Assembly (NCBI GenBank): GCA_937927515.1
Contig: CALBDO010000005.1
Coordinates: 71,665-135,664, forward strand
DNA: 64,000 nucleotides
From: Candidatus Kapaibacterium sp.
GTDB taxonomy: Bacteria > Bacteroidota > Ignavibacteria > Kapaibacteriales > UBA2268
Reading direction: 5' to 3'
This document shows, in pieces, positions 17,113 through 64,000 of this stretch. The translations under genes and the position numbers were made by a program. Position 1 is the stretch's first letter, and each line of letters opens with the position of its first letter. The notes under the pieces were generated by a model. That model was given only the letters and a program-made list of their open reading frames with translations, was not told the origin of the DNA and made no database searches.

Positions 17113-18030
17113 TCAAGAATTTCTAAAAAACTCCACTGTCAATTCTAACCCATGGTCCAAATTAATTTCTGGCTTCCAGCCAGTTAACCTCTGAAATTTT
17201 TCGTAAGACAAACAACTTCTTAGAATTTCGCCAGGTTTAGGTGGTCCATGAATTGCATCTAAATCAGAATTGATTATTCCTTTAATTTTTTTGAAAATGG
17301 TATTTACATCTGTTTCAATTCCGGTTGAAATGTTGAATATACCATTTACGTTTTCGTTCAAGGATAGTACATTTGCTCGGATGACATCTGATATGAAGAC
17401 GTAGTCTCTTGTTGCTGTTCCATCTCCATGTATAATAGGTTGCACACCTTTTAATAACTTACTGGTGAAGATTGCAACTACTCCAGCCTCTCCCTTGGGA
17501 TTTTGACGTGGGCCATAGACATTGCTGTACCTTAAAGCTACAAACTGAGTACCGTATACTTTTTGAAAGAAGGAAAGATAAAGTTCATTGGTCAATTTAG
17601 AGATACCATAAGGCGAGCAAGGGTTCAATGGATGTTCCTCGTTTGCGGGGTAGTAGATTTGTTCTCCGTATACTGTTCCACCAGATGAAGCAAAAATAAT
17701 TTTTTTTACCTTGGAACGAACAGCACTATTGTATAATCTTACACTACCGAGTATGTTGGTTTGGGCATCGAAGACTGGGTTGTCCACCGAGATTCGAACA
17801 TCAATTTGCGCTGCATGGTGATTGATAACATCGAAGTTTCTTTTTTCTATAATTGTGGAGATTTCAGGGTCATTAATATCTAATTTGAGGAATTCTGCTT
17901 TGGGGTTTACATTTGAAATATCGCCAGTGGAAAGGTTATCAACAACAGTTACATTGTGCCCAAGTGAGATATATGCATCGACAATATGCGACCCAATAAA
18001 TCCGGCACCTCCTGTGACAAGTATGTTCAT
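17113..18030 (-). CDS. NAD-dependent epimerase/dehydratase (UDP-sugar 4-epimerase-like)
   Basis: N-terminal TGGAGFIGSH; catalytic YxxxK (YGISK); 305 aa. Confidence 0.85.
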   Translation of the reverse strand: MNILVTGGAGFIGSHIVDAYISLGHNVTVVDNLSTGDISNVNPKAEFLKLDINDPEISTIIEKRNFDVINHHAAQIDVRISVDNPVFDAQTNILGSVRLYNSAVRSKVKKIIFASSGGTVYGEQIYYPANEEHPLNPCSPYGISKLTNELYLSFFQKVYGTQFVALRYSNVYGPRQNPKGEAGVVAIFTSKLLKGVQPIIHGDGTATRDYVFISDVIRANVLSLNENVNGIFNISTGIETDVNTIFKKIKGIINSDLDAIHGPPKPGEILRSCLSYEKFQRLTGWKPEINLDHGLELTVEFFRNS

Positions 18031-35892: not shown

Positions 35893-36084
35893 TTCAAAAT
35901 TTTGGATAATTTGAAATTACAATTTTAAAAATTTTAGGCAACTTTTGTTTCAGAAATTCCACGATGTATTCTTGAATATTTTTAATGTTGCTTTATCTTA
36001 ATTAAATTATTTCATATATCTCTCGTGCCCACAGGTTGAAAAATGTACTTTAACATTTAATCTTACCAGTGGAACAAAAATTAC

Positions 36085-38025
36085 TTACTTGGTTAAACTA
36101 ATTAGAAAATTCCATTCTTTGGTGTAATCAATTTTATTGTAATATTCTGTTTCTCTTTTAACACCAACAACTTTGTTCTTATCATCGTAAATTGGAACTC
36201 TTCGCACGACTGCAAGGGTTATTCTTTTTAATACTTTTTGAAAGTCAGATTCAGTAGAAATGCGTATCCATTGCAATATCTCGGAATACCAAAGAATTTC
36301 ATTATTGTCGCTAATTTCAAGATGAAATTCAATAGTATCGTTTAAGTCGTATCCATTTTCAAATTCGTTTTCAATTTGTATCTCATTTAAGTTGATTTTT
36401 TGAACATAGTTCTTTTTAAATGGGTTCATTTCGACATAAATTTTTTTCTCGACAGTTGAATTGTTAGAAGAAGTTTTTGAAGAATGCGAAAACTTATTAC
36501 CGTCCCAAAAAATTTGGTTGGAGGTAAAATCGAAATTGAAATGATATTTTTGGTTACTCGACGACCCGCTCAGTGATGCGTAGAAGTTACAATAAAATTG
36601 TTTTAAATGGGAATATTGTGATGATTGTTGTTGAACAGAATAGAAATTAATACCATTGAAATCAATGTAAGCATAGATTTTTTTTGCTTTTTCCAGCTCG
36701 CTTTTTGATGATACTGCTTCAAAATTGCCATCAGTACAATTCACTTTGTAAGTTTTGGAATCAATAAAAACAATTACTTCGCCATTGTATGATACTTTAT
36801 TAGGGTATTCATCAGTTTTGAAAGTCTCGACAGTTCCAGCAATTTTGCCATTTTCATAGTCAATTTTTTTAATTGTGACTTGGATTGGTGGCATAAATAA
36901 GGCAAGGTCTTTCATTGCCGAAACCATAAAATTTGGGATAAGTTCAGAAGCTTGGGATTCAACACATTCCTTGTCGATATATGGATATCCTCGATTTCTG
37001 AATATAGAGTTGAAATATCCTTTATCTTTTGCCATTTTCACACGACGGCCACTTGGAAAAACTTTGTAGAAAGTGAATTCCTCCTCTACGTATTCCAGAT
37101 TTTCTAATTTAGGCGAGCTATATTCCTTCTCGCCATTTAATGGTTTAATAGTGGAATATCCTTTGCCGGAAATAGTTTCACCACTAAAAAAATTTGAATT
37201 TGTAAACAAGGCAAGTTGTTCATGAACTTCGCGAATAGTTTTTGCTTTTTGTATATTTTCCAAAAGAAATGGGTCTGGCTGGCCGTCTGCATAGTCTTTT
37301 ATCCAAGATGGATTGAAAAGTTCTTCGTATGGGTCTGGGCTGCCAAAAGCCCAACCCCAACTTAATCCAAATGGAGCTGCATGGCTATCATTTCGTACAT
37401 GAGGTGGGCAAGCCATGTCTGCTAGATTATGCAAAACCTCTCCAAAGCATCGCCAAGCTTTTGCAAGAAGTTGTCGCTTCTTCTGTGGGTCTGGTTCTTG
37501 AATTGCTTGAAGCATATATAATTTTCCATTCTTAGCGCTCAATTTATTTGCTTCTCCTTTCGGTGTATCGCCAAGTGCCCATTCAATTGCATCAATACCC
37601 GGGTTTGGATAGAAACCTTCCCAATATGTTCCACGATTTGAAAGATATTTCTTACCATCCTTTAATCCTTTCGGGTCGAAAAAATGTCGAACCGCAGCTG
37701 GGACTTCGGGCTCGTCGGCAGACATACCGCCATGAGCTATCCATTCTCCAGGTGTTAGGTTCAACTCACTCTCTCCAGTAGTTGATTCAAAAAGACCTAA
37801 ATTACTTACACCCTGACCTTTTAACTTATTCAAATTGTCTGTCAGTTTTAGTTGAAAACCTAAATCAAAAGGGTCCTTTGTGGACATTAGTTTCTCTAAA
37901 TATTTTACAAATTCACTGTTAAAGGTCGTGTGTGATTTAGTATTTTCATAACTAATTGAAGCAAAATGTAGTGCAACGTATGTTGCAAAACCAGCTATCA
38001 ACATTATTATATTTCTTGTTTTCAT
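36085..38025 (-). CDS. Zinc-dependent phospholipase C / P1-nuclease superfamily domain protein with a ~370-aa unknown C-terminal region
   Basis: Signal/TM at the N-terminus. HFFDP aligns to HFYDP, and AWRCFGEVLHNLADMACPPH aligns to the Bacillus cereus PLC segment LGLSLHYLGDVNQPMH. Both are Zn-ligand segments. Confidence 0.6.
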   Translation of the reverse strand: MKTRNIIMLIAGFATYVALHFASISYENTKSHTTFNSEFVKYLEKLMSTKDPFDLGFQLKLTDNLNKLKGQGVSNLGLFESTTGESELNLTPGEWIAHGGMSADEPEVPAAVRHFFDPKGLKDGKKYLSNRGTYWEGFYPNPGIDAIEWALGDTPKGEANKLSAKNGKLYMLQAIQEPDPQKKRQLLAKAWRCFGEVLHNLADMACPPHVRNDSHAAPFGLSWGWAFGSPDPYEELFNPSWIKDYADGQPDPFLLENIQKAKTIREVHEQLALFTNSNFFSGETISGKGYSTIKPLNGEKEYSSPKLENLEYVEEEFTFYKVFPSGRRVKMAKDKGYFNSIFRNRGYPYIDKECVESQASELIPNFMVSAMKDLALFMPPIQVTIKKIDYENGKIAGTVETFKTDEYPNKVSYNGEVIVFIDSKTYKVNCTDGNFEAVSSKSELEKAKKIYAYIDFNGINFYSVQQQSSQYSHLKQFYCNFYASLSGSSSNQKYHFNFDFTSNQIFWDGNKFSHSSKTSSNNSTVEKKIYVEMNPFKKNYVQKINLNEIQIENEFENGYDLNDTIEFHLEISDNNEILWYSEILQWIRISTESDFQKVLKRITLAVVRRVPIYDDKNKVVGVKRETEYYNKIDYTKEWNFLISLTK

Positions 38026-46503: not shown

Positions 46504-49500
46504 ATGAGAAAGTATGTTTGTTTATTAGCAATCTCTATTTGTACGCACTTTTTTTCATTTTCTCAACCCAATCCTAATTACCTCTTCTTTTTTAATGGAA
46601 ATGACATCACTTCTGTCGTGCCTGTATTCGGTAGTTCTACTTACTTAATTGGTTCTCGGTTTAGTGGTTTAGGTATTTTCCACTTGGATTCTATGAAATA
46701 CTTAGGTTTAATTCAAAAAATATCAGCTCCAATTCCAAGTCACAATATCTTAGCTTTGAGAAAATTTTCGAATGATGTAGTTTGGATTTGCACCGACAAA
46801 GGTTTGGTACAAGTCCGCAGCAACCAATATACTATATTCGATTCTCGGAATTCTCCTCTTCCCTCCGATATTGTAAACGACATTTACATTGATGCACTGG
46901 GTATTTGGTGGATTGCTACGGACCGTGGTCTTGTCTCTAAAAACGATACAGTCTGGACAGTGTATACTCCAAGTAACTCTGGCATACCATCCGAGAAGGT
47001 CTTCCACGTAAATGTTGACCCTGTGGGTAATGTCTGGGTGGCTACCCCCTTTGGTTTGGGAATGTATGATAGGTCGGATTGGTATGTTTTCAACACTTCA
47101 AACTCTGGTTTGCCGGACAATTTCATAACATTCATTGAATTCGATAATTTTAACAATTCTAAATGGATAGGTACCCTTCAAGGTGGATTGGTTCATTGGG
47201 TAGGAAATAACTTTTTCGTTTACGACACTAGCAATTCTGCTCTTCCAAGTAATTTGGTTACTTGCTTTGCTTTCGATACTGCGCACAACAAGTGGGTCGG
47301 CACATCCGAAGGTTTGGTTTATATCTCTCCTTCTGGCTGGCAAGTCTTTAATACCAGCAACTCTGGATTATCAGACGATTTCATTAATTTTATCCATGTC
47401 GATGCCCTTAATCGGAAGATGATTTGCACAAGAAATAAGTTAACTGTTATTCACGACACAAATTTTGTGATAATAAGTTTTGAAAATTCCAAACTTCCAA
47501 GTAATTATATACAAAAAGTGGTGGAAGGTATCGACCTTGTAAAGTGGATTGCAACTCCCGATGAGTTAGTTTCTTATGATGGCGATAATTGGACTGTTTA
47601 TAATTCTTTGAACTCCCCCATAACACACCAAATCAATGATATAGCGATTGATAGTGATAACAATTTGTGGGTTGCTACCGACTCGGGATTGTTTGTCCGA
47701 AGATTTAAAACCAATGATTGGCTTTCGTATTACTACGACACCTTAGGTTTGATAAGTAGCAGAGTAACCAAAGTGCTTCCCACCACTCTTGGGGTTTGGA
47801 TTGGCACCGATTCTGGGTTAGTGCTTTATAATGGTGGCAACTGGATAAGATACGACACCACGTACGGTGCTAAATTTAATGGTATTATTACTTCTTTGAG
47901 TTCAAAGATGGTTGAAGACAGTATTGGTACTTATGAAAGGATTTATGTTGGGCTTGGCTACGAAGGTATTGCAATATTTGAAAGAGATACAGTAAGATTT
48001 ATTGACGATACCAATTCGCCATTTTCTTTGATTTACATTACTGATGTCAAAGAAGATATCTCGGGTAAGTTGTTTGTAGGCTCTTTGGACCAAGGACTCT
48101 ATACTTACGATTCTCTTTGGTTGGTGCATAACCCTCTTACTGGCAGTTTTCCCGGCTTTTCCGTGAAAAGCATTACTTTCGACAGGTTCAATAGACCTTG
48201 GGTAACGACTTTGGCTGGTGGAATTTGGACCCAAATTAACGACACAACATCCATTGTCATTACAGAGGATGGATATCCATTTTATACTAATGAATTCAAC
48301 GATGTGTTTGTAGATTTATCGAACAACAAATGGATTTCAACTTCATATGGTCTGTATGTTTTTAATGAAGACACTATCAAACCAGAATTAAAATTAAAGC
48401 CTTACGATTTTGAAGTTTGCCAAGATAATATTTTCACATTGAGTTTTTATTCTTTCTTTTTGTTTAGAGAGGGGAATAGTTTTTTGGTAAAACTAAGTGA
48501 TACCACAGGTAGATTTGATACAACAATTATTATTGGTTCGATACAATCGAGGAGCAGTCGACCGATTAGATGCTATATACCCAAAATCACCTCTCCCAGC
48601 ACCAAATACAAACTTCAAATAGTTTCTACAAATCCACCACTGATTTCACATCCATCTGGTATGATGGAGCGCTTAGTGGTTCGTCCACTTCCTGTTCCTA
48701 AAATAAGTGGTGATTCTGTGATTTGCTCATCCGAAATAGCCAAATTATGGGCAATTCGCCAAGGAGTTGGTTCGGACCTTTGGACTTTCGTTTGGAGAGT
48801 TGATGGGGGAGAATTGCTATCGCCCCCAACTAATGATACAATTTTGGTGAGATTTCAAGGCGTATCCTATGGTACAGTAGTTTTAAATGTTTACAATTCC
48901 TATGGTTGTGTCGATTCAACATCTGCAAAAGTATGGTTGTCCAATCCTCCTGGGAAAATCCTTTATGGTCAGAACCGAGCTTGTGCTGGCGATGCGTTCA
49001 TTTATTCCACAACTGATACATCTAACATAAGAAACATCTGGACCGTTGTTAATGGTACTTTGGTGAAAAAGCTTGCAAATAACGTCGTTATTGTTCGTTG
49101 GGATAATTCAGGAACTGGTTATGTTAAACTCAAAAGAGTAAATCTTCTGGGTTGTGCTGATTCTATAAGTTTGAAAGTTGATATCTTTCCGACACCTACG
49201 GCAGAATTTGCTGGCAAATCGGAGGTTATGGTCGAGGAAATAGCGTATTACATAGCTAAAAGAAAAGAATCGAGCACTGCTAACAAGTGGAGTGTCGTGA
49301 ATGGAATTATTGTCGGGCCTAGCGATGGCGACACTCTTGTAGTAGGTTGGCCAAATGGTGGTTTTGGTAAAGTGAAACTATTACAGCGTACTCCATCTGG
49401 TTGCTCGGATTCGTCTGAAAAAATTGTAAGAGTTTTTGAACACTCTAAACTTGCTGGCGACACTTTGGTTTGTGAAAACTCCGAAACATACTACGAAGCC

Positions 49501-50151
49501 ATCTCTAACCTCGGAGCGAATAACCAATGGTATGTTACTAATGGTACAATTACATCCAATCCACAAAATCGTAGAGTTTGGGTTCGTTGGGGTGCTCCTG
49601 GAACTGGTCGTGTGAAACTAGTTCAAACGGTTCCAAATACTTTCTTCAAAGACTCTTTTGATGTTGTCGTAAAAATCGCTGCTGTTCCATCCAAACCCTT
49701 TATTGTCGATAGTGGTGGATATTTATATTCTAGTTCTCCATTTGGCAATCAATGGTATTGGAATGGACAAATGCTTTATGGTGATACCAATAGAACAATT
49801 GTTCCGCTACGTACAGGCTATTACACTGTTAAAGTTAAATCTGCTCCAAATTGCGAAAGTGAGTTTTCAGACCCATTCTACTTTGTCAGTGGTGTGGATG
49901 ATGAAGCAAGCGGTGTTGTTATTTACCCAAATCCATCATCTGGAGTAGTATTCGTTACCTTGTCCGAGGATATCGTATGTGATAACATCATTGTGAAGGA
50001 CCTCCTCGGAGTCGAACTACTTAGACAAAGCTTTGCAGAAATTTCCCAGAATAAATATTTAGACCTATCGAATTTAAGTACTGGAACGTATTTAATCACA
50101 ATGAGGATAGGAAACAAAGAAATTACAAAAAGAGTCGTTCTTATTAAGTAA
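46504..50151 (+). CDS. Large T9SS-secreted protein with two-component-regulator-propeller (Reg_prop) repeats, four tandem ~85-aa Cys-containing domains, and a type-A CTD
   Basis: GGAGG RBS and a signal peptide. There are at least eight Reg_prop-like repeats (W[IV][AG]T..GL......W.V[FY][NT].SNS.LP.). Residues ~740-1080 contain four repeats of the pattern G..V/AC.......Y....W.V.NG......D.L.V.W...G.G.VKL....GC.DS. The C-terminus is VVIYPNPSSGVVFVTL...GTYLITMRIGNKEITKRVVLIK. Confidence 0.85.
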   Translation: MRKYVCLLAISICTHFFSFSQPNPNYLFFFNGNDITSVVPVFGSSTYLIGSRFSGLGIFHLDSMKYLGLIQKISAPIPSHNILALRKFSNDVVWICTDKGLVQVRSNQYTIFDSRNSPLPSDIVNDIYIDALGIWWIATDRGLVSKNDTVWTVYTPSNSGIPSEKVFHVNVDPVGNVWVATPFGLGMYDRSDWYVFNTSNSGLPDNFITFIEFDNFNNSKWIGTLQGGLVHWVGNNFFVYDTSNSALPSNLVTCFAFDTAHNKWVGTSEGLVYISPSGWQVFNTSNSGLSDDFINFIHVDALNRKMICTRNKLTVIHDTNFVIISFENSKLPSNYIQKVVEGIDLVKWIATPDELVSYDGDNWTVYNSLNSPITHQINDIAIDSDNNLWVATDSGLFVRRFKTNDWLSYYYDTLGLISSRVTKVLPTTLGVWIGTDSGLVLYNGGNWIRYDTTYGAKFNGIITSLSSKMVEDSIGTYERIYVGLGYEGIAIFERDTVRFIDDTNSPFSLIYITDVKEDISGKLFVGSLDQGLYTYDSLWLVHNPLTGSFPGFSVKSITFDRFNRPWVTTLAGGIWTQINDTTSIVITEDGYPFYTNEFNDVFVDLSNNKWISTSYGLYVFNEDTIKPELKLKPYDFEVCQDNIFTLSFYSFFLFREGNSFLVKLSDTTGRFDTTIIIGSIQSRSSRPIRCYIPKITSPSTKYKLQIVSTNPPLISHPSGMMERLVVRPLPVPKISGDSVICSSEIAKLWAIRQGVGSDLWTFVWRVDGGELLSPPTNDTILVRFQGVSYGTVVLNVYNSYGCVDSTSAKVWLSNPPGKILYGQNRACAGDAFIYSTTDTSNIRNIWTVVNGTLVKKLANNVVIVRWDNSGTGYVKLKRVNLLGCADSISLKVDIFPTPTAEFAGKSEVMVEEIAYYIAKRKESSTANKWSVVNGIIVGPSDGDTLVVGWPNGGFGKVKLLQRTPSGCSDSSEKIVRVFEHSKLAGDTLVCENSETYYEAISNLGANNQWYVTNGTITSNPQNRRVWVRWGAPGTGRVKLVQTVPNTFFKDSFDVVVKIAAVPSKPFIVDSGGYLYSSSPFGNQWYWNGQMLYGDTNRTIVPLRTGYYTVKVKSAPNCESEFSDPFYFVSGVDDEASGVVIYPNPSSGVVFVTLSEDIVCDNIIVKDLLGVELLRQSFAEISQNKYLDLSNLSTGTYLITMRIGNKEITKRVVLIK

Positions 50152-52653: not shown

Positions 52654-54078
52654 TTATATTAGTTTACGCAAGATGTATTCGTAAGCAGATTTTAATCTTT
52701 CGTCGAATAGAAGATTTCTCTCCATTGTATTCAAGGCATGCAATACAGTGGTGTGGTCACGATTGCCAAAATGCCTTCCAATTGTCTCGAGGGTCGCATT
52801 AGTCAGTTCTTTGCAAATGTACATTGCTAACTGACGGGGTTCGACAAGTTCCTTTTTACGAGATTTAGACTCTAAGTCTGACGGATTTAAGTTGAAATAA
52901 TGAGCAACTGCACTTTTAATTTTGTCTATAGTGATGATTTTTGAGGTTCGTATATGTTTTGTACGGAGAATATCGCGTACAAGGTCGATGCTGGGTTTTT
53001 TGTTTCCGAGTGCAACTTGAGCAACCAAACTTATAATAACTCCTTCTATTTCACGCACATTAGTAGTGACATTTTGAGCAATATATTCAATCACCTCCAA
53101 AGGTAAATCTATTCCTTCATTTTCACTTTTCTTTCGGGCTATAGCTATTCTTGTTTCTAATTCTGGTGGTTCAATGAAAGCCAAGACACCCCATTGAAAA
53201 CGGCTAATCAGTCGCTCGTCCAAGTCTTTTAAATCCTTTGGGGCTTTATCGCTGGTAAGAACAATTTGCTTACCAGATTGGTGAAGATTGTTGAATGTAT
53301 GGAAGAAATGGTCTTGTATTTTCCCTTTATTTTGAAAAAATTGTATATCGTCTAATAATAGAACATCGACACTTCGGTATAATTGAAGAAATTCGTTCAT
53401 ATTATTATTTTTTATTGCTTCGATAAAGTCGTTTGCGAAATTTTCGCTTGTTGAGTATAATACTTGTACATTGGGATGATGGATTAAAATGTAATTTCCA
53501 ATTGCTTGAAGTAGATGAGTTTTTCCCAAGCCAGAATTTCCATATATGATTAATGGATTGAAGCGAGTTTGCAAAGGATTTTTAGAGATTGCTAATGCAG
53601 ATGAATAGGCAAATTCATTACTATCGCCGACGACAAAGTTGTCGAAGGTATAATTTGAAACAAGGTTTGGGTTATAATTAAGTTTTTGAATTCGGGAGAT
53701 TCGAACTTGTTCTTCTGTGCGAGTATTGCTACTTGGAATTTTGATTTTGGACAAATCTGGTTGGTTTGTATCGAGAACAACTTGATATTTAAGTTTTATG
53801 TTTTCTCCGAATAATTTTTGAATACCAGTATAAATCAAACTATAGTAATGCTCGTCCAACCACTCGCAGTAAAATTGTGATGGTACTTCAACGATAAGTT
53901 CTGTTTGCTCTATTTTGATAGGCTTTATTGGGGCAAACCAAGTTCGGAAGATATGAGTTGAAACATTATTTTTAATGAAACGAAGAAACTTTTTCCATTT
54001 TGATGTTAGACTTTCCTTTTTAATTTCAATATTTTGTCCTGCCTCTGTAATAGTTTCTTGCAAAAAGTCTTTTTCCAT
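52654..54078 (-). CDS. dnaA: Chromosomal replication initiator protein DnaA
   Basis: AAA+ Walker A YGNSGLGKTHLLQAIGNY. The C-terminal DNA-binding signature ...NRDHTTVLHA... is present. 474 aa. Confidence 0.92.
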   Translation of the reverse strand: MEKDFLQETITEAGQNIEIKKESLTSKWKKFLRFIKNNVSTHIFRTWFAPIKPIKIEQTELIVEVPSQFYCEWLDEHYYSLIYTGIQKLFGENIKLKYQVVLDTNQPDLSKIKIPSSNTRTEEQVRISRIQKLNYNPNLVSNYTFDNFVVGDSNEFAYSSALAISKNPLQTRFNPLIIYGNSGLGKTHLLQAIGNYILIHHPNVQVLYSTSENFANDFIEAIKNNNMNEFLQLYRSVDVLLLDDIQFFQNKGKIQDHFFHTFNNLHQSGKQIVLTSDKAPKDLKDLDERLISRFQWGVLAFIEPPELETRIAIARKKSENEGIDLPLEVIEYIAQNVTTNVREIEGVIISLVAQVALGNKKPSIDLVRDILRTKHIRTSKIITIDKIKSAVAHYFNLNPSDLESKSRKKELVEPRQLAMYICKELTNATLETIGRHFGNRDHTTVLHALNTMERNLLFDERLKSAYEYILRKLI

Positions 54079-54384
54079 TACTTCCTTTCCTCCAATCGTA
54101 AACAGACAGGTTCGAAGATTAAAATTTAAATTCTATAATTAATGAAAGACAAATTTGAAAGAATTTTATAAAAAAATCAAATAAAATTTCTATCATTTTT
54201 AAAAATTACCTTTGTTTGTTTGTATGTATTGAAAATAAAGAACTTCCAAATAAAATTTGTTTAAACTTTATTAATATTCTGTAAGTTTTTATTTAATCTT
54301 TTGAAAATTAAGATAATTAAATTGGCATAGTGGATTTATATAAGTTTTATAAAGAAATATTTTAAGTGTTTGGAATTAAATAAC

Positions 54385-57579: not shown

Positions 57580-58506
57580 TTAATAAAACTTTACTTTTTT
57601 GTGGTATTCTGGCAATACACAGCCTACACAAGCTGGATAATGATGGGCTAAGCGTGCACAAATTTGTTTCGAACTTTCTTCCATTCCGTTGGCTACAAGA
57701 CGAAAGGCATTAAGTCTTTTAATTTTGATTAATTTATTTTTAAATTGACGTGTCAAATTGTTTAGAATAATTTTATTCAAGTTTGTTCCAAAAAGATATA
57801 GAGAATTTATTTCAATTGAGAACTCGTTACTTATTTTATTTACATTCTGCTCTATTAATTTTGGAATATCTTCTTCACTGTTATATTTTATTAGGTTGTA
57901 GGAGTAAAACTCTTCACCTTTTATAACGCTGTAATCGATAAAATTATCTGATAAATTGAACAATCCAACGAAATTGTCTCTTTCCTCTGGATAATTATAT
58001 AAAAAGCAATTCTGGGCTGAAATTTGGCTTATTTCAATTCGTTGCACAGTTTTATTACACTGTTTAGCTATTGATTTGATAGTTTGAAAAATTTTCTTTG
58101 GTATAATTGCTGCAAGGAAGTGTATTCTTTCTTTTCGTGGTTGTAGTTCAAACAAAAAAGTGGGAAAATCCTCGGGATTGAATTGCGGGTAATTGTGTTT
58201 AATCTCGAAATCCAATACAGTCATAATTTCATCTCTGGAGAGTTGTGGTCGACCTGGAAATTGTGTGATAATTAAATATTCCATAGGGATAGAAATCGAG
58301 ATAAATTTTGCGTCATTTGAAATGTCTTTAATTGTCGTGTAGAGTTCTTCTAATGCTTGCTCATTTGTTGGATTTTCTAGATTCTCTAAATCAATAGGTA
58401 AAGAAGTTGTGGACAAATCTAAAAGTTTCAACCCTTTATTCGCTTTTTCTAATAAAGTGATATACGTCCTTGTTGGTGAAAAATACATTGAAAGGACTTT
58501 TTCCAT
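57580..58506 (-). CDS. Hypothetical protein
   Basis: 308-aa ORF tightly packed between the HDOD gene and rsmD. No family recognised. Confidence 0.55.
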   Translation of the reverse strand: MEKVLSMYFSPTRTYITLLEKANKGLKLLDLSTTSLPIDLENLENPTNEQALEELYTTIKDISNDAKFISISIPMEYLIITQFPGRPQLSRDEIMTVLDFEIKHNYPQFNPEDFPTFLFELQPRKERIHFLAAIIPKKIFQTIKSIAKQCNKTVQRIEISQISAQNCFLYNYPEERDNFVGLFNLSDNFIDYSVIKGEEFYSYNLIKYNSEEDIPKLIEQNVNKISNEFSIEINSLYLFGTNLNKIILNNLTRQFKNKLIKIKRLNAFRLVANGMEESSKQICARLAHHYPACVGCVLPEYHKKVKFY

Positions 58507-58519
58507 ATTTTACCTAAAT

Positions 58520-59698
58520 TTATCTTCTTTTCACTTCCCTTGCTTTTCTTATATGTAGTATGGAATTTAGTAAATTCTTTTCGAAACCAATTTCAAAAAT
58601 ATGTGGAACGTCTAAAGGTGGAGCATGGTAAATAAAATCAGCAATATGAACAACAGTTGCAAAATTCAGCTTGCTATTTTGCAACTGTGAGGGCTTGTGG
58701 TGGTAGGCCACGGCTTCTACTATTGAGATTGGAAATCCCCAGAGTCCGAGTAGATAAGCACCAATTTCAGCATGGGTGCACTGATAAATTTCTTCCTCTG
58801 CCTCGAGGTGGGTATATCCCTTTTGTTCGGATAATACAATTAAATTTTCGGGATAGGTTAAAGTATTCAAGAGAACAAATTTTCCAACATCGTGTAGGAC
58901 ACCAGCGGTGTAAGAAATATCTAACGCACTTTTTTCTTTAAAAAACAATTCAGAAAGGTGGTAGGAGTTCGACGCAACAAATAGGCTGTGCTGCCAAAAA
59001 CGCTCTAAGTGCTTTCGATTTTCGGCTGTGACTTTAAAGTTCGAAAATAGATGTATGTAAAAAACCAATGATTTAATGACATTCACTCCCAAATAAGCCA
59101 ATGCGTAATTGATATTGGTGATTTCGCTCCTCAAACCAAAGTAAGCAGAGTTGACAATTTGTAAAATTTTTGCGGTTAAATTTGGGTCCTTTGAAATCAA
59201 ATTTGCAATCTTATTTAAAGAAAAATCTTTTTTGGCTACCTCTTCCTCAATTTGTATATAGATTTCTGGCATAGAGGGTAAAGTGGTGGTATTTTTTATC
59301 AATTCCTCTACTTTTTCATTTCTTAGAAACTTTTGAATTTGCAAAATATTATCAATTCTCTCTTTTAAGTTGTCTTTTGTTATAGGAAGGGTAACAAATT
59401 GATGTACATATTGGCTTGATTGTGCAACAGCAGGACTTTCTAAATTTTGAACTAAAGCAAAACGTATAGTTTCTGGAAAAAGCCTTTTGATTTCGTGCAA
59501 CAAATTTGCTCCAGATGACAAAACAATTTCTGTACTTGAAAATACTATATCTACTCTATTGTTTGCCAAAAGTTGTATTGCCTTTTCTCCACTTTCTGCG
59601 AAAAAACAATCAAACTCATCTCGCAATGGAATAGTGATTGAAATTAACTCCTTTAGTAGATTTTCATTGCCAACGGCGAAAAGTATGCTTGGTTTCAT
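58520..59698 (-). CDS. HDOD-domain protein with an N-terminal degenerate (pseudo) receiver domain
   Basis: The C-terminal HDOD pattern (...GVLHDVGKFVL...HAEIGAYLLGLWGFP...) is present. In the N-terminal CheY-like fold the phospho-acceptor position reads VDIVFSSTE, with Ser in place of Asp. Confidence 0.75.
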   Translation of the reverse strand: MKPSILFAVGNENLLKELISITIPLRDEFDCFFAESGEKAIQLLANNRVDIVFSSTEIVLSSGANLLHEIKRLFPETIRFALVQNLESPAVAQSSQYVHQFVTLPITKDNLKERIDNILQIQKFLRNEKVEELIKNTTTLPSMPEIYIQIEEEVAKKDFSLNKIANLISKDPNLTAKILQIVNSAYFGLRSEITNINYALAYLGVNVIKSLVFYIHLFSNFKVTAENRKHLERFWQHSLFVASNSYHLSELFFKEKSALDISYTAGVLHDVGKFVLLNTLTYPENLIVLSEQKGYTHLEAEEEIYQCTHAEIGAYLLGLWGFPISIVEAVAYHHKPSQLQNSKLNFATVVHIADFIYHAPPLDVPHIFEIGFEKNLLNSILHIRKAREVKRR

Positions 59699-59748
59699 AA
59701 TATGTTAATAAATTGGTTAAATGCAAATTAATAATCATGCATGATATA

Positions 59749-61065
59749 TCAAAATACTCGTTCCCAAAAGGCTGAATTAAACTTAGGGTCTTTATATTTT
59801 AAAAATGTTTCTAAATTTTGGAATGATTTTCTAAACACAAAAGGCTTCATTCTGGCGTCTTTTGCTGGGTACAAAGCACCTCCGAATTCAACCACCATTT
59901 CGTCGGTTTTGTCCAAGACATTGAATAATGATTGGTTGATAGGAAAGTCTATTGCTACAGTTACCCCATCTCTTGGAAATGATAAGTAACCCGGAGGTTC
60001 AAAATTCCCAAATGTCTTCAAAACGGTTAGAAATGAACCTAAGTTGGCTTTTTTAAATTCATTGAATATCGAATGGAGAGTTCTTTTGGCATCTTCTCTT
60101 GGAATAACAAACTGGTATTGGAGAAACCCTTTTCTGCCGTAGAGATAATTCCAATTTCCAATTGCATCGAGAGGATAAAAAAAAGCATCATAGTGCACTA
60201 ACTTTGATTCTATTTTGTTGAATTGTTTTCCATAGTAAATGTAGTTGAAAACAGAGGTGGAAAATTTATTTATTAATGAGAAAGGTAGTGCAAAAGGAAT
60301 ACCCAGCAATGTTTCTTTATATCGCTGCTCAAACCCTGCGTCAATATGATTTGCTCTTTGGTAGATGCCTCGCACAGTGTTTTCACCTCCATTAGTTACA
60401 TCAACCCAAGCAACTGTGTATTCGTAATGTCTTTCTGAAGAAGTGTTTATTTCAAAAAACTCATCTAGTGAATTAAATTTCAAGTATTCCAAATTTAGAT
60501 ACTCACTTGGAATTTTTTTGAGAGCGATTTCAGCACTGAGAATTAATCCTGTTAAACCTAATCCGCCTATCGTGGCTTTGAAAAACTCGGTATGATTGTT
60601 ATTAGAGCAAAGAAGGACATCGCCATCTGAACGAAGTAATTCAAAATTTTTAACATAATGTCCAAAAGAGCCAGCATTGTGGTGATTTTTCCCGTGGACG
60701 TCATTTGCGATTGCTCCTCCGATGGTCACAAATTTTGTACCAGGTGTAACTGGTAAAAACCAACCGAAACGAACAATAAGTTTCAAAATTTTTGCAAGTG
60801 ATACTCCGCTTTCACATTTTAAAAGCCCTCTGTCTTTATCAAAAAAAATGAAATGATTCAATCCAGAGGTGTCGATTAAAGTGCCATTTTGAACCAAGCA
60901 AACATCACCATAACTTCTTCCTAATCCGAAAGGTAATACCTTTGAGTTGTCATAGAAGATGTCGGTTTCATTACGCCAATTAATTTTCCTTACCTGGCTT
61001 GCACTTAATTTTGGGTATAAACCCCAAGAATGATATTTTTTCATAATATTATCGCCGAAATCCAA
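59749..61065 (-). CDS. FAD-dependent oxidoreductase, DprE1-like (decaprenylphosphoryl-beta-D-ribose oxidase homologue)
   Basis: GLGRSYGD and [35 protein letters not shown] match the M. tuberculosis DprE1 segments GLGRSYGD and [45 protein letters not shown] is identical. Confidence 0.8.
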   Translation of the reverse strand: [438 protein letters not shown]

Positions 61066-62477
61066 ATGATTATCATTAAAACTAAAGTGAAAAGAAAAGT
61101 TGGATTTTTAAGAATAACGAGTATTGGGTCGTGGTCTATACTCTTGTTCTTTGCATAGTTCCATAGCATTGCCAGCCAAAACAGCAAAAGAAAAGCGTCG
61201 AACCAAAGTAGGGAGGGGGATTTATAAAGTGTGTTTACTTTTTCACTATTAATGTAGAGGATTAACACAATTATCGATGCAAATGCACTATTGATTCCAA
61301 GGATTTGAAAAAAGTTCGACGAATCGATATTGTATGGCCTACCATACATATTTTTTTCAGAGTTAGCGATTAAATTTAACTCCACATACCGCTTTAAAGT
61401 CGCCAATGACAAAAAGAAAAAGATAGAAAATGCAAGTAACCAGTTAGATACTGGTATTCCAGTTGCAAGACTACCAGCTATAATTCTTAACACGTAGAAT
61501 GTTGAAAGTAAAAAAATATCCGCTATAGGTATGCGTTTTGCAAAAAATGAATAAACAAAATTCAACAAGACATACATTATGCACGTAAGTGTGAATTCAT
61601 TACTGACTGAAAATGCAACCACAATACCTATCGTAAGTAATAAAAAACAAACGAAAAGACCAGTGTATGCTGAAGTCACTCCGCTTGGAATTGGTCTGTG
61701 TTTCTTTGAGGGATGATTTCTATCGTTTCTAATGTCAACAATATCATTAAAAATGTAGACGGAGGAAGCGACAAAAGAAAACGAAATAAAGGCTAAAATG
61801 GACTTACCAATAATGGAAATGTTGTTGAATTCGTGTGCCAATAATAATGGCAAGAAAATCAATAGGTTTTTTATCCATTGATGAACTCTGATTAGTCTGC
61901 TAAAGTCCTCAATTTTGGTTCGATAGTTTAGTAAGTTACCAGAGAAATTTTTTCGTTTCTGAAGAAGTAAATTGATAATTCTTGAATTGGAAACAAGTAT
62001 AGATTTTTTTGCAATTTTCCAAATTGGCAAGTCGGCTATGGAATCTCCAATGTAGATGAAGTTGCCTTTGCCAAATTTTCGCTCGAGAAATTTAGCTTTA
62101 TTTTTGCCTTTCAAATTAAAGTTGTAATCAGAACCATACACTTCGTCGAAAAGTTTCAAATGATTATTAATGTCTTGTGCTATTTTGATATTCGAGGCGG
62201 TAACAAGGACTAATCTTCTCCCTTTTTCCTTTTCTTGTTTCAAAAAGCTTAGCACTTCTTCACGATATGGTAATTCGCCATATTCTAATTGCACATTTTC
62301 GGATAATTTTTCTTTTAAGTATTGCTTGGATTTAAGGAGCCAAAAAGGGGTAAGAAAAATGGCAGTGGGTTTTTTTTTAAGATACAATACAATCTGCTCG
62401 ACAAGTATATCTGTTGATATCAAAGTGTAATCGAGGTCTACACAAATTATCTCTGCTTCTTTTTGGTTCATTTTCAC
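61041..62477 (-). CDS. Fusion of a HAD-superfamily phosphatase (N-terminal) and a UbiA-family polyprenyl-phosphate phosphoribosyltransferase (C-terminal; DPPR-synthase-like)
   Basis: HAD motif I DLDYTL and motif IV GDSIAD in residues 1-190. The UbiA part (HQWIKNLLIF; NDIVDIRNDRNHPSKKHRPIPSG; LRIIAGSLATGIPVSNWLL; LKRYVELNL) closely parallels M. tuberculosis Rv3806c (NDVLDVEADRLHPTKRFRPIASG, etc.). Overlaps the DprE1-like gene by 25 nt. Confidence 0.8.
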   Translation of the reverse strand: MKMNQKEAEIICVDLDYTLISTDILVEQIVLYLKKKPTAIFLTPFWLLKSKQYLKEKLSENVQLEYGELPYREEVLSFLKQEKEKGRRLVLVTASNIKIAQDINNHLKLFDEVYGSDYNFNLKGKNKAKFLERKFGKGNFIYIGDSIADLPIWKIAKKSILVSNSRIINLLLQKRKNFSGNLLNYRTKIEDFSRLIRVHQWIKNLLIFLPLLLAHEFNNISIIGKSILAFISFSFVASSVYIFNDIVDIRNDRNHPSKKHRPIPSGVTSAYTGLFVCFLLLTIGIVVAFSVSNEFTLTCIMYVLLNFVYSFFAKRIPIADIFLLSTFYVLRIIAGSLATGIPVSNWLLAFSIFFFLSLATLKRYVELNLIANSEKNMYGRPYNIDSSNFFQILGINSAFASIIVLILYINSEKVNTLYKSPSLLWFDAFLLLFWLAMLWNYAKNKSIDHDPILVILKNPTFLFTLVLMIIIWISAIIL

Positions 62478-62599
62478 GAAAAAAACAAAAATACGGAATT
62501 ATCGGATAATCAATACATTAATAGTTAGGGTTTGCATCGAGAATATGAGCTAAATTATTCCTTTGAATAAAGGCTGTAATTTAAAATTGAAATTGAATA

Positions 62600-64000
62600 T
62601 TAATATTTCATTATCTGCTCGATAGCGGAATAAACTTTTTGCTCTGTCACCAGCACGTAATTTTCATAATTGGGATGATAGGGGATGTGTGAGTCGTGCG
62701 AAGCAACTCGAATTATTGGAGCATCTAAATAATTAAAAGCAAATTGGGAAATTGTAGCAGCAATTTCGGCACCAAAACCATTTGTCCAAGTATCCTCATG
62801 AACTATCATCAGTCTATTTGTTTTTTGAACAGATTTTAACACCAAGTCCTTGTCCCAAGGAATAATTGTCCTCAAATCTATAATTTCAATAGAAACACCG
62901 GGGTTTTCATTTGTGTATTTTTTAGCGGCATTGAAAGAATCCTTTACACCCATTCCCCAAGTTACAATTGTAAGTTCGTTTCCTTGCTGAACAATTTTGC
63001 CTTTTCCAAATGGAAGCAAGAAATCTTTTCCTGGCTCAATATCAGATGAGAAGGGATGTCGATATAGACCTTTGTGTTCGCAAAAAATTACTGGGTCTTG
63101 CAATCGACAAGCAGTTTTGAGCAGGCCTTTTGCATCTGCTGCATTCGATGGATAAGCAATTAGAAGGCCAGGAATATGGGCGAAGATTGATTCAATGTTT
63201 TGTGAATGGTACAGACCACCGTGAATATACCCTCCGACGGCTACTCTTATCACGACTGGTGCAGAGAAATTACCATTGGAACGATACCGTAGAGTAGCGA
63301 TTTCGTTTTTGATTTGCATAAAAGCAGGCCAAATATAATCCCCAAATTGCATTTCCACAACGGGCTTGAAACCTCGCACTGCCAATCCAAGAGCTACACC
63401 CGCAATCGAGGCTTCTGCCAGAGGTGAATTGAAGACTCTTTGAGAACCAAACTTACTGGAAAGTCCTTTGGTTGCAGTAAAAACTCCCCCCTTGGGGTCG
63501 GCAATATCCTCGCCGAAAATTAACATTTTGGGATTGCGTTCCATTTCTTCATGCAAAGCGTGGTTGATAGCATCAACCATGACTATTTTCTCCCCCGTTC
63601 GGGGATAGTCAGTCGAATAAGGAAGGTTTCGAGTTTCCTCCGGAGCAAAAATGTGTTTTAAACTGTCTGTTGGAATTGGGTCTGGTTCGGAGAAGGCTTT
63701 ATCAGCCCAATAATCAATTTCTGAATTAGTTTGTTCTAAAATTTCATTCAATTCATCGTGTGTTGCAATGTTATTTTCAATCAAGTAGTTTTGGAGTTTT
63801 TTTATTGGGTCCTTTTGAAAAGCATAGCTTAGTTCTTCTTTCGACCTATACTTTCTGTGGTCATCGCTCGAGGAGTGGGGGAGTAGCCTTTCCACAAGTG
63901 CGTGGAGCAATACGGGTCCACAACCGCTCGTAGTGTAATCCAGTGCTTCCTTTGCAGCTAAGTAAGATTCAAAAAAGTTTGTCCCGTCAAATGTTTTGAT
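62600..64000 (-). CDS. 2-oxo-acid dehydrogenase E1 component, fused alpha/beta type; C-terminal part in window, 5' end beyond window
   Basis: The beta-subunit transketolase-like core (GEDIADPKGGVFTATKGL...; ...VVEMQFGDYIWPA...) is preceded by an alpha-subunit C-terminal region (LLPHSSSDD). The frame stays open from 63911 to the window end, so the track start at 63910 is internal. Confidence 0.8.
   Translation of the reverse strand: MKTFDGTNFFESYLAAKEALDYTTSGCGPVLLHALVERLLPHSSSDDHRKYRSKEELSYAFQKDPIKKLQNYLIENNIATHDELNEILEQTNSEIDYWADKAFSEPDPIPTDSLKHIFAPEETRNLPYSTDYPRTGEKIVMVDAINHALHEEMERNPKMLIFGEDIADPKGGVFTATKGLSSKFGSQRVFNSPLAEASIAGVALGLAVRGFKPVVEMQFGDYIWPAFMQIKNEIATLRYRSNGNFSAPVVIRVAVGGYIHGGLYHSQNIESIFAHIPGLLIAYPSNAADAKGLLKTACRLQDPVIFCEHKGLYRHPFSSDIEPGKDFLLPFGKGKIVQQGNELTIVTWGMGVKDSFNAAKKYTNENPGVSIEIIDLRTIIPWDKDLVLKSVQKTNRLMIVHEDTWTNGFGAEIAATISQFAFNYLDAPIIRVASHDSHIPYHPNYENYVLVTEQKVYSAIEQIMKY

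What the first reader, a model, noticed from the sequence alone, without database searches (positions are those of the whole stretch)
59749..62477. DprE1-like oxidase plus HAD-phosphatase::UbiA (DPPR-synthase-like) fusion: a polyprenyl-phospho-pentose donor pathway in a non-actinobacterial genome
**Seen in sequence**
- Two overlapping minus-strand genes.
- The UbiA half carries the NDxxDxxxDRxHPxKxxRPIxSG motif and other blocks that parallel mycobacterial decaprenyl-phosphate phosphoribosyltransferase (Rv3806c) almost residue by residue.
- The neighbour matches DprE1 across its FAD and substrate regions (GLGRSYGD; GGAIAxDxHGKNHHxAGSFG; [10 protein letters not shown]).

**Established knowledge**
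- In Corynebacterineae the arabinan donor DPA is made in four steps: Rv3806c makes DPPR, a PAP2 phosphatase (Rv3807c) dephosphorylates it, then DprE1/DprE2 epimerise at C2'.

**Inference**
- Here the phosphatase step appears to be supplied by an N-terminally fused HAD domain, a different phosphatase superfamily.
- I see no DprE2-type SDR adjacent, so the product could be a polyprenyl-P-ribose or 2-keto sugar, or the reductase lies elsewhere.
- This would predict an arabinofuranose-like or ribofuranose-like lipid-linked donor for a surface glycan in this organism.
Basis: partly seen in the sequence, partly recalled or inferred. Interest (0 to 1): 0.65.

Follow-up and report, generated by a model that had tools for sequence, protein, structure and literature searches.

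The report
Lipid-linked pentose donor gene pair
Two overlapping genes in this Kapabacteria-type genome encode an already described kind of enzyme pair that builds a lipid-anchored ribose and oxidises it on the way to arabinose, for decorating a cell-surface sugar polymer; it is a new member of a known, widespread system, not a new pathway.

Summary
Window 61041-62477(-) encodes an N-terminal HAD phosphatase fused to a UbiA-fold domain of the Rv3806c (polyprenyl-phosphate phosphoribosyltransferase) clade. Window 59749-61044(-) encodes a DprE1-type FAD oxidase. The two genes overlap by ATGA.

The same architecture (C. youngae ORF15, PRP::PPPRS) was characterised biochemically by Kelly et al. 2024 (PMC11127046), who also report DprE1/E2 homologues in Araf-type systems of Gram-negatives.

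The fusion is a curated NCBIfam family (NF006088) and occurs in at least 565 species genomes. The usual operon is fusion, then DprE1-like, then a DprE2-like SDR, often with a GT-C and a small flippase.

What is particular here: in this genome and its Kapabacteria/Ignavibacteria relatives the pair stands alone among housekeeping genes. No DprE2, flippase or GT-C lies in the 64-kb window or 10 kb beyond it.

In one related Kapabacteria assembly the pair and a DprE2-like gene lie on different contigs. Two further contigs carry a DprE2-like gene with no pair within 8 kb. A reductase elsewhere is therefore the likeliest reading, but it is unproven for this genome.

Verdict: new member of a known kind, modest interest.

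The parts
61041..62477 (-). Bifunctional HAD phosphatase (PRP-like, residues ~1-185) fused to a UbiA-fold polyprenyl-phosphate phosphoribosyltransferase (PPPRS, residues ~190-478). The probable true start is the ATG at 62471 (476 aa).
59749..61044 (-). DprE1-type FAD-dependent polyprenyl-phospho-ribose 2'-oxidase homologue (431 aa from the ATG at 61044; the mechanical ORF extends to the TTG at 61065).
   Evidence: PF01565. NF053785 at 3.9e-107. PDB DprE1 at 3e-71. The equivalents of Mtb K418, H132 and K134 are invariant in 52 aligned sequences, and the C387 equivalent is Ala.
61041..61044 (-). ATGA stop/start overlap joining the two genes, which implies co-transcription and probably translational coupling.
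   Evidence: Read directly from the sequence. The same 4-nt overlap, or a 0-nt junction, is seen in relatives L001, L004, L086-L088 and L095.

Best explanation
The two genes form a two-gene operon for the cytoplasmic-face synthesis of a polyprenyl-phosphate-linked pentofuranose donor.

**Step 1 (inferred from homology and conserved catalytic residues).** The C-terminal UbiA-fold domain transfers ribofuranose-5-phosphate from PRPP to a polyprenyl phosphate. The carrier is presumably undecaprenyl-P.

**Step 2 (inferred likewise).** The fused N-terminal HAD domain removes the 5'-phosphate and gives polyprenyl-P-beta-D-Ribf. These two steps are what the architecturally identical C. youngae ORF15 does in vitro.

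**Step 3 (inferred).** The DprE1-like flavoenzyme oxidises the 2'-OH to give polyprenyl-P-2-keto-erythro-pentofuranose.

**Step 4 (not shown for this genome).** A DprE2-like NAD(P)H-dependent SDR encoded elsewhere reduces the keto sugar to polyprenyl-P-D-Araf.

**Step 5 (not shown).** The donor is flipped and used by a GT-C glycosyltransferase, also encoded elsewhere, to add arabinofuranose to a surface glycan or protein.
For: - **Family and fold assignments:**
- **Mutated residues of ORF15 are all present.** The residues mutated in ORF15 (D18, N247, D248, D251, D255, R366, E369; PMC11127046) are all present in the window protein at a constant offset of 3 to 4 residues: D14, N244, D245, D248, D252, R363, E366.
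- **ATGA coupling of the two genes:**
- **Usual gene order.** A DprE1-like gene lies within 3 kb of the fusion in 55 of the 80 loci from the genome scan. It directly follows the fusion, and is followed by a ~245-aa SDR, in most of them; 29 of the 41 loci with both ORFs called carry that SDR nearby.
- **The SDR is DprE2-like.** It hits NF053786 DprE2 at 2.4e-54, and the PDB DprE2 chain at 7.5e-32, 15 orders of magnitude ahead of any other SDR.
- **Separation has precedent.** In the Kapabacteria assembly GCA_026418625.1 the fusion+DprE1 pair (contig 1) and a DprE2-like gene (contig 56) are unlinked. Two further contigs (L093, an unnamed ENA contig; L094, named Kapabacteria) carry a DprE2-like gene with no pair within 8 kb.
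- **GT and sugar genes can also be unlinked.** This is the case in P. aeruginosa Pa5196.
Against: - No DprE2-like, GtrA/ArnEF-like, GT-C or PRK07233-like gene was found in the 64-kb window (Pfam on all ORFs of 150 aa or more; tblastn with 13 neighbour families; hydropathy scan). None was found in the 10 kb beyond the window's right end.
- Two searches with Kapabacteria DprE2-like queries returned no hit on the large contigs that carry this clade's fusion gene (2.66 Mb and 533 kb) among the top 120. This is weak evidence, because only the top 120 of about 8000 hits are shown.
- The oxidase scores below NCBIfam's DprE1 equivalog cutoff (359 against 500).
- No biochemistry exists for any member of this phylum, and the acceptor glycan is unknown.
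Confidence: 0.72

Rival explanations
1. The pathway really lacks a DprE2. The pair makes polyprenyl-P-Ribf and its 2-keto derivative. Either the 2-keto-pentofuranose itself is the donor or end product, or a non-DprE2 enzyme (another reductase, or an aminotransferase) converts it to a different pentose derivative.
For: - The pair is conserved as a stand-alone cassette, without an adjacent SDR, in at least six Kapabacteria/Ignavibacteria lineages. Fusion identity to the window ranges from 46 to 99%, and the neighbourhoods differ.
- No DprE2-like hit could be tied to the large contigs of this clade.
Against: - Unlinked DprE2-like genes do exist in Kapabacteria, once in the same assembly as a stand-alone pair.
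- Other Kapabacteria/Ignavibacteria keep the three genes together (L040, L089-L091).
- The window's oxidase is 49% identical to the DprE2-linked oxidase of L040.
- No keto-pentose donor is known in any system (background knowledge).
Confidence: 0.15
2. The product stops at polyprenyl-P-ribofuranose (a Ribf-type three-component system), and the DprE1-like oxidase is a decayed or repurposed passenger.
For: About a third of the fusion loci have no DprE1. They carry instead an ArnE/F-like small transporter and a GT-C, which is the Ribf type described by Kelly et al..
Against: - Here the oxidase is intact and overlaps the fusion gene by ATGA.
- It keeps the FAD-region and catalytic residues that are invariant in the family.
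- The pair has been kept together across deep divergence.
Confidence: 0.08
3. The UbiA half is an aromatic or quinone/heme prenyltransferase, and the neighbour is a generic FAD-linked alditol or lactone oxidase. The resemblance to the arabinan pathway is then superficial.
For: Only the general Pfam-level membership in PF01040 and PF01565.
Against: - DPPRS models score 124-162 bits, against 49 or less for UbiA, heme O, DGGGP and chlorophyll synthases.
- The DprE1 model scores 359 bits, against 46 or less for lactone, alditol and glycolate oxidases.
- PDB DprE1 chains hit at 3e-71, against 8e-10 for the next family.
Confidence: 0.02

Closest known systems
Citrobacter youngae O1 ORF15, the PRP::PPPRS polyprenyl-phosphoribofuranose synthase of the 'three-component' pentofuranose glycosylation systems (Kelly et al., PNAS 2024, PMC11127046)
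   Different: ORF15 sits in an O-antigen locus next to its ArnE/F-like flippase and GT136 GT-C, and has no DprE1. Here the partner is a DprE1-like oxidase, and no flippase or GT-C lies within about 74 kb.
Mycobacterial decaprenyl-phospho-arabinose pathway (Rv3806c/UbiA, Rv3807c, DprE1, DprE2)
   Same: The chemistry is the same for the transferase and oxidase steps. The closest solved structures for the two proteins are 8j8j and DprE1.
   Different: The phosphatase is a fused HAD domain instead of the separate PAP2 protein Rv3807c. The lipid is probably C55, not C50. The DprE1 Cys387 is Ala. DprE2 is not adjacent. The organism is a Gram-negative member of the FCB group.
Pseudomonas aeruginosa Pa5196/PA7 D-Araf pilin glycosylation cluster PsPA7_6245-6251 (bioRxiv 10.1101/2020.04.19.049825; Harvey et al. 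2011 as cited there)
   Same: It is a non-actinobacterial DPPRS + DprE1 + DprE2 route to a polyprenyl-P-Araf donor. The sugar-donor genes are unlinked from the GT-C (TfpW) genes.
   Different: In P. aeruginosa the phosphatase is a separate protein, and DprE2 and a GtrA-like protein are in the same cluster.
NCBIfam NF006088 (PRK08238) fusion followed by DprE1-like and PRK07102 SDR, the operon widespread in Proteobacteria, Acidobacteriota, Nitrospirota and others
   Same: The window's fusion passes the family cutoff. The gene order (fusion, then oxidase) is identical.
   Different: The third gene (the DprE2-like PRK07102 SDR) and the frequent downstream genes are missing here. Those frequent genes are a GT-C, an extended SDR, the PRK07233 FAD oxidoreductase and GtrA.

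Membership tests
PRP::PPPRS bifunctional polyprenyl-phosphoribofuranose synthase (ORF15 type; NCBIfam NF006088) | Full-length match to the curated family model, above its cutoff | tested here: met
   523.9 bits against a cutoff of 351, covering residues 3-476 of 478.
PRP::PPPRS bifunctional polyprenyl-phosphoribofuranose synthase (ORF15 type; NCBIfam NF006088) | N-terminal HAD fold with the catalytic DxD nucleophile loop and motifs II-IV | tested here: met
PRP::PPPRS bifunctional polyprenyl-phosphoribofuranose synthase (ORF15 type; NCBIfam NF006088) | C-terminal UbiA fold of the DPPRS clade, with the NDxxDxxxD motif and the loop-IV R/E pair | tested here: met
   N244, D245, D248 and D252 are invariant; R363 and E366 are conserved in at least 90%. 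8j8j is the best sequence and fold match.
PRP::PPPRS bifunctional polyprenyl-phosphoribofuranose synthase (ORF15 type; NCBIfam NF006088) | PRPP-dependent synthesis of polyprenyl-P-Ribf | not testable with these tools
   This needs a membrane assay with PRPP and farnesyl-P or undecaprenyl-P.
Three-component pentofuranose glycosylation system (Kelly et al. 2024) | A cognate small flippase (ArnE/F- or GtrA-like) and a GT-C glycosyltransferase are encoded with the synthase | tested here: not met
   None was found in the 64-kb window or in the next 10 kb. The rest of the genome could not be searched.
DprE1 (decaprenylphosphoryl-beta-D-ribose 2'-oxidase) | VAO-type FAD-binding domain plus full-length DprE1 homology | tested here: met
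   PF01565 at 1.1e-18. PDB DprE1 at 3e-71 over residues 43-424. NF053785 at 3.9e-107.
DprE1 (decaprenylphosphoryl-beta-D-ribose 2'-oxidase) | Score above the NCBIfam equivalog cutoff | tested here: not met
   359 bits, below the cutoff of 500. My own inference: the model appears tuned to actinobacterial orthologues.
DprE1 (decaprenylphosphoryl-beta-D-ribose 2'-oxidase) | Catalytic Lys418, and the His132/Lys134 region | tested here: met
   K402, H124 and K126 are invariant in 52 of 52 aligned sequences. The residue mapping comes from the alignment.
DprE1 (decaprenylphosphoryl-beta-D-ribose 2'-oxidase) | Cys387, the covalent benzothiazinone target | tested here: not met
   Ala371 in the window; Ala in 45, Thr in 6 and Cys in 1 of the 52 aligned sequences (window plus 51 homologues). 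From background knowledge, natural Ala/Ser variants in mycobacteria remain active, so this residue is not required for catalysis.
DprE1/DprE2 epimerase couple | A partner DprE2-type SDR | tested here: inconclusive
   It is absent from the window and from the adjacent 10 kb. Unlinked DprE2-like genes exist in related Kapabacteria.

The most novel reading that the evidence does not exclude
In Kapabacteria/Ignavibacteria the fusion+DprE1 cassette has been kept for a long time as a free-standing pair inside housekeeping neighbourhoods, rather than inside a variable glycan locus. Two novel readings remain open:

1. These FCB-group Gram-negatives build a core, lineage-wide arabinofuranose-containing envelope polymer. 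Some relatives place glf (galactofuranose) directly beside the genes, which would give an arabinogalactan-like glycan outside Actinobacteria.
2. In the DprE2-less genomes the pathway ends in a different product, a 2-keto-pentofuranose or a derivative.
Probability: 0.12. Interest if true: 0.6.

Novelty: new member of a known kind. Interest (0 to 1): 0.3.

Why it matters
It predicts that an uncultured Kapabacteria lineage makes a polyprenyl-phosphate pentofuranose donor, most likely for D-arabinofuranose. It therefore predicts a pentofuranose-decorated surface glycan or glycoprotein.

It adds a phylum to the distribution of the PRP::PPPRS / DprE1 route. It also shows that the pathway's genes can be scattered around the genome, so locus-based searches for 'three-component systems' would miss such genomes.

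It does not open a new biochemical question. The fused HAD phosphatase, which was the finding's main point, was demonstrated experimentally in 2024.

Tried and rejected
- **HAD domain alone against PDB sequences (E up to 10):** no hits. The fold comparison was needed instead.
- **Promoter and terminator scan of 58400-63000:** counts no higher than in shuffled sequence, so uninformative.
- **Search for DprE2, GtrA, ArnE/F-like, GT-C, PRK07233 and extended-SDR neighbours in the window by tblastn:** the only hit was a generic 26-28% match of the GalE-like gene at 17113-18030. That gene sits next to a UDP-GlcNAc 2-epimerase 42 kb away and was judged unrelated.
- **Attempt to tie a DprE2-like protein to this clade's genomes by matching 'longest contig' lengths (2,660,650 and 533,415 bp):** no match in the two top-120 lists. 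The result is inconclusive.
- **Apparent truncation of the upstream E1 dehydrogenase gene:** considered and rejected. The reading frame simply runs off the window end.
- **Menaquinone / heme O / generic oxidase reading:** rejected.
Full report
**Observation**

Two co-directional minus-strand ORFs occupy 59749-62477.

The upstream ORF (61041-62477) is a two-domain protein:
- Pfam finds HAD (PF12710, residues 49-152) and UbiA (PF01040, residues 224-441).
- The curated NCBIfam model NF006088/PRK08238 matches from residue 3 to 476 at 524 bits, above its cutoff of 351.

The downstream ORF matches three things:
- the VAO-type FAD domain PF01565;
- the NCBIfam DprE1 model (3.9e-107; 359 bits, below the equivalog cutoff of 500);
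- all DprE1 chains in the PDB at about 3e-71 over nearly its full length, with 38% identity to the M. smegmatis enzyme.

Reading the junction shows ...ATA TTA TGA for the end of the fusion, with ATG AAA AAA TAT overlapping it. The real arrangement is therefore an ATGA 4-nt overlap, and the oxidase is 431 aa. Gene calls on a 99%-identical public contig agree: 476 aa and 431 aa with a 4-nt overlap.

**Which clades the two proteins belong to**

For the UbiA half:
- The three decaprenyl-phosphate phosphoribosyltransferase models score 162, 146 and 124 bits. The best other prenyltransferase model scores 49, and 4-hydroxybenzoate, heme O, DGGGP and chlorophyll synthases score 40 or less.
- The only PDB sequences hit are the M. 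tuberculosis DPPRS entries 8j8j/8j8k (1.7e-31).
- An AlphaFold2 model built on 66 homologues is confident (mean pLDDT 92.7, pTM 0.90).

Conserved residues in alignments of 15 and 66 homologues:
- The HAD catalytic positions are invariant (D14, D16, K127, D149) or at least 90% conserved (T18, T93).
- The first Asp-rich motif of the transferase is invariant (N244, D245, D248, D252, R253).
- R363 and E366 are at least 90% conserved.

For the oxidase, the next-best families (sugar lactone oxidase, xylitol oxidase, cytokinin oxidase) are more than 60 orders of magnitude weaker.

Mapping through the PDB alignment gives:
- Mtb Lys418 corresponds to K402.
- Mtb His132/Lys134 correspond to H124/K126. 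All three are invariant in the 52 aligned sequences (window plus 51 homologues).
- Mtb Cys387 corresponds to Ala371. That position is Ala in 45, Thr in 6 and Cys in 1 of the 52.

From background knowledge, Cys387 is the benzothiazinone attachment site and is not needed for catalysis. Its absence therefore does not count against a DprE1-like function. It does predict insensitivity to benzothiazinones.

**This is already known**

Kelly, Duong, Nothof, Lowary and Whitfield (PNAS 2024, PMC11127046) characterised Citrobacter youngae ORF15. It has an N-terminal HAD 'phosphoribose phosphatase' (PRP) domain fused to a C-terminal Rv3806c-like polyprenyl-phosphoribose synthase.
- Membranes with ORF15 made farnesyl-P-Ribf from PRPP.
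- The D18A mutant accumulated the 5-phosphate intermediate.
- N247, D248, D251 and D255 were needed for activity.

The window protein carries D14, N244, D245, D248, D252, R363 and E366. These are the same residues at a constant offset of 3 to 4 positions.

The same paper states that candidate systems for Araf-containing glycans contain DprE1/E2 homologues, and that those for Xylf contain an SDR epimerase. A DPPRS/DprE1/DprE2 route to D-Araf for pilin glycosylation in P. aeruginosa is older still.

**Distribution and usual context**

The 80 best span:
- Beta-, Gamma-, Alpha- and Zetaproteobacteria;
- Acidobacteriota, Nitrospiraceae and Verrucomicrobiia;
- Tepidisphaeraceae, Bdellovibrionota and Myxococcales;
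- Saprospiraceae, Kapabacteria and a Nocardioides.

Findings from those loci:
- tblastn finds a DprE1-like gene within 3 kb of the fusion in 55 of the 80 loci. It directly follows the fusion in most of them.
- After clustering all neighbouring ORFs, the third most common family is a ~245-aa classical SDR. It lies near the pair in 29 of the 41 loci where both ORFs were called. That fraction is probably an underestimate, because spurious antisense ORFs in high-GC genomes mask real genes.
- The SDR matches NF005489/PRK07102 above its cutoff and the DprE2 model at 2.4e-54. Its best PDB match is the DprE2 chain of the DprE1-DprE2 complex (7.5e-32, against 1e-16 for the next SDR).
- Further recurrent neighbours are GT-C-like polytopic proteins, GtrA-like proteins, an extended SDR and the PRK07233 FAD oxidoreductase.
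- Loci without DprE1 often carry an ArnE/F-like small transporter and a GT-C. That is the Ribf-type three-component system of Kelly et al..

**What is particular here**

The organism is a member of the Kapabacteria. The best named homologue, at 83%, is from 'Candidatus Kapaibacteriota'. The window also encodes T9SS sorting-domain proteins.

None of the accessory genes was found near the pair:
- Pfam on every ORF of 150 aa or more, tblastn with 13 neighbour families and a hydropathy scan were all negative.
- The only polytopic proteins in the window are an MFS transporter, a YitT protein, a P-type ATPase, an FtsX permease and the fusion itself.
- The 10 kb beyond the window's right end, read from the 99%-identical contig, holds the rest of the E1 dehydrogenase gene, pol III delta', DnaB, RuvA and a peptidase.

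The flanks are E1 dehydrogenase upstream, and HDOD response regulator, RsmD, PPK2, PyrF and DnaA downstream. They are syntenic in relatives with only 57-59% fusion identity.

More distant Kapabacteria/Ignavibacteria (46-51% identity) keep the overlapping pair but in four different housekeeping neighbourhoods, again without an SDR, flippase or GT-C.

Other members of the group keep three genes together:
- L040 has fusion, DprE1-like and DprE2-like genes in a row.
- L089-L091 have the same three genes with UDP-galactopyranose mutase directly upstream. In L089 and L090 a transposase-like ORF sits between the DprE1-like and DprE2-like genes.

**Where the reductase might be**

- In assembly GCA_026418625.1 the stand-alone pair is on contig JAOABA010000001.
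- A DprE2-like SDR, 60% identical to the operon-encoded one of L040, is on contig JAOABA010000056, between secA and an acyltransferase gene.
- Two more contigs carry a DprE2-like gene with no pair within 8 kb: L093 (an unnamed ENA contig whose SDR is 83% identical to P0127) and L094 (named Kapabacteria).

Separation of the reductase from the pair is thus a recurrent arrangement in this lineage, and 'the reductase lies elsewhere' is the most economical reading.

I could not verify it for this genome. The rest of the genome is not available, and two homology searches did not return a DprE2-like protein on the large contigs of this clade among the 120 hits shown. That negative result is weak.

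**Mechanism proposed**

1. PRPP + polyprenyl-P gives polyprenyl-P-Ribf-5-P (UbiA domain).
2. Dephosphorylation gives polyprenyl-P-Ribf (HAD domain).
3. Oxidation at C2' gives the 2-keto sugar (DprE1-like, FAD).
4. Reduction gives polyprenyl-P-Araf (unlinked DprE2-like SDR).
5. Flipping, then transfer by an unlinked GT-C.

Steps 1-3 rest on strong homology, conserved catalytic residues and the biochemistry of characterised homologues. Steps 4-5 are inferred from the usual operon and from related genomes.

Neither protein has a signal peptide in its N-terminal sequence. This fits synthesis at the cytoplasmic face, which is where P. aeruginosa DprE1 was localised.

**Verdict**

The finding is a new member of a known and widespread system. 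Its only unusual aspect is the scattered gene organisation in Kapabacteria/Ignavibacteria, which leaves a small chance of a DprE2-independent product or of a lineage-wide Araf(-Galf) envelope polymer.

Noticed in passing
L089 3365-8738, L090 3365-8738, L091 4115-8738: In Ignavibacteria/Kapaibacterium contigs, UDP-galactopyranose mutase (glf, PF03275) lies directly upstream of fusion, DprE1-like and DprE2-like genes. This hints at a glycan with both Galf and Araf. In L089 and L090 a Y1-transposase-like ORF is inserted between the DprE1-like and DprE2-like genes, which suggests one way the reductase becomes separated.
   Followed up: partly
L092 8001-8738, L093 8001-8738, L094 8001-8750: DprE2-like SDR genes sit alone in housekeeping contexts: secA-SDR twice (L092, named Kapabacteria; L093, an unnamed ENA contig) and thiL-like-SDR-clpP-clpX once (L094, named Kapabacteria). 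L092 comes from the same assembly (GCA_026418625.1) as the stand-alone fusion+DprE1 pair in L088.
   Followed up: yes
L009, L018, L022, L028, L035, L038, L069, L073, L074 (downstream of the fusion, about +1.5 to +8 kb): A longer gene array recurs in proteobacterial and Nitrospiraceae-labelled loci: fusion, DprE1-like, DprE2-like, GT-C, extended SDR, PRK07233-type FAD oxidoreductase (NF005560, 568 bits), then often GtrA. The roles of the extended SDR and of the PRK07233 protein are unexplained. They might further modify the lipid-linked pentose.
   Followed up: partly
L010, L019, L034, L043, L070, L076, L082: Fusion loci without a DprE1-like gene carry an ArnE/F-like ~120-aa membrane protein and/or a ~410-560-aa GT-C. 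This matches the published Ribf-type three-component layout.
   Followed up: partly
window 59934-59936 (codon for Ala371 of the oxidase): The benzothiazinone-reactive Cys387 of M. tuberculosis DprE1 is Ala here, and Ala in 45 of the 52 aligned sequences (window plus 51 homologues). These enzymes should be naturally insensitive to covalent DprE1 inhibitors.
   Followed up: yes
window 33727-38025 (-): A 721-aa protein with two GT2 domains lies next to a 646-aa ORF that has no Pfam hit. This may be a separate polysaccharide synthesis unit. No link to the pentose genes was found.
   Followed up: no
window 4629-5984, 21843-24377, 46504-50151: Three proteins carry the type IX secretion C-terminal sorting domain (PF18962). 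This fits an FCB-group (Kapabacteria) origin for the window.
   Followed up: no
window 52654-54384 (-): dnaA is followed by a 306-bp intergenic gap before DUF2851. The fusion+DprE1 pair lies only about 6 kb from dnaA, and this synteny is conserved in relatives (L001, L004, L095). The cumulative GC skew shows no clear turning point here, and I did not look for an origin.
   Followed up: no
window 62600-64000 (-): The upstream fused E1alpha/beta 2-oxoacid dehydrogenase gene (720 aa in relatives) runs off the window end. The 436-aa ORF in the ORF list is only its C-terminal part, not a truncated gene.
   Followed up: yes
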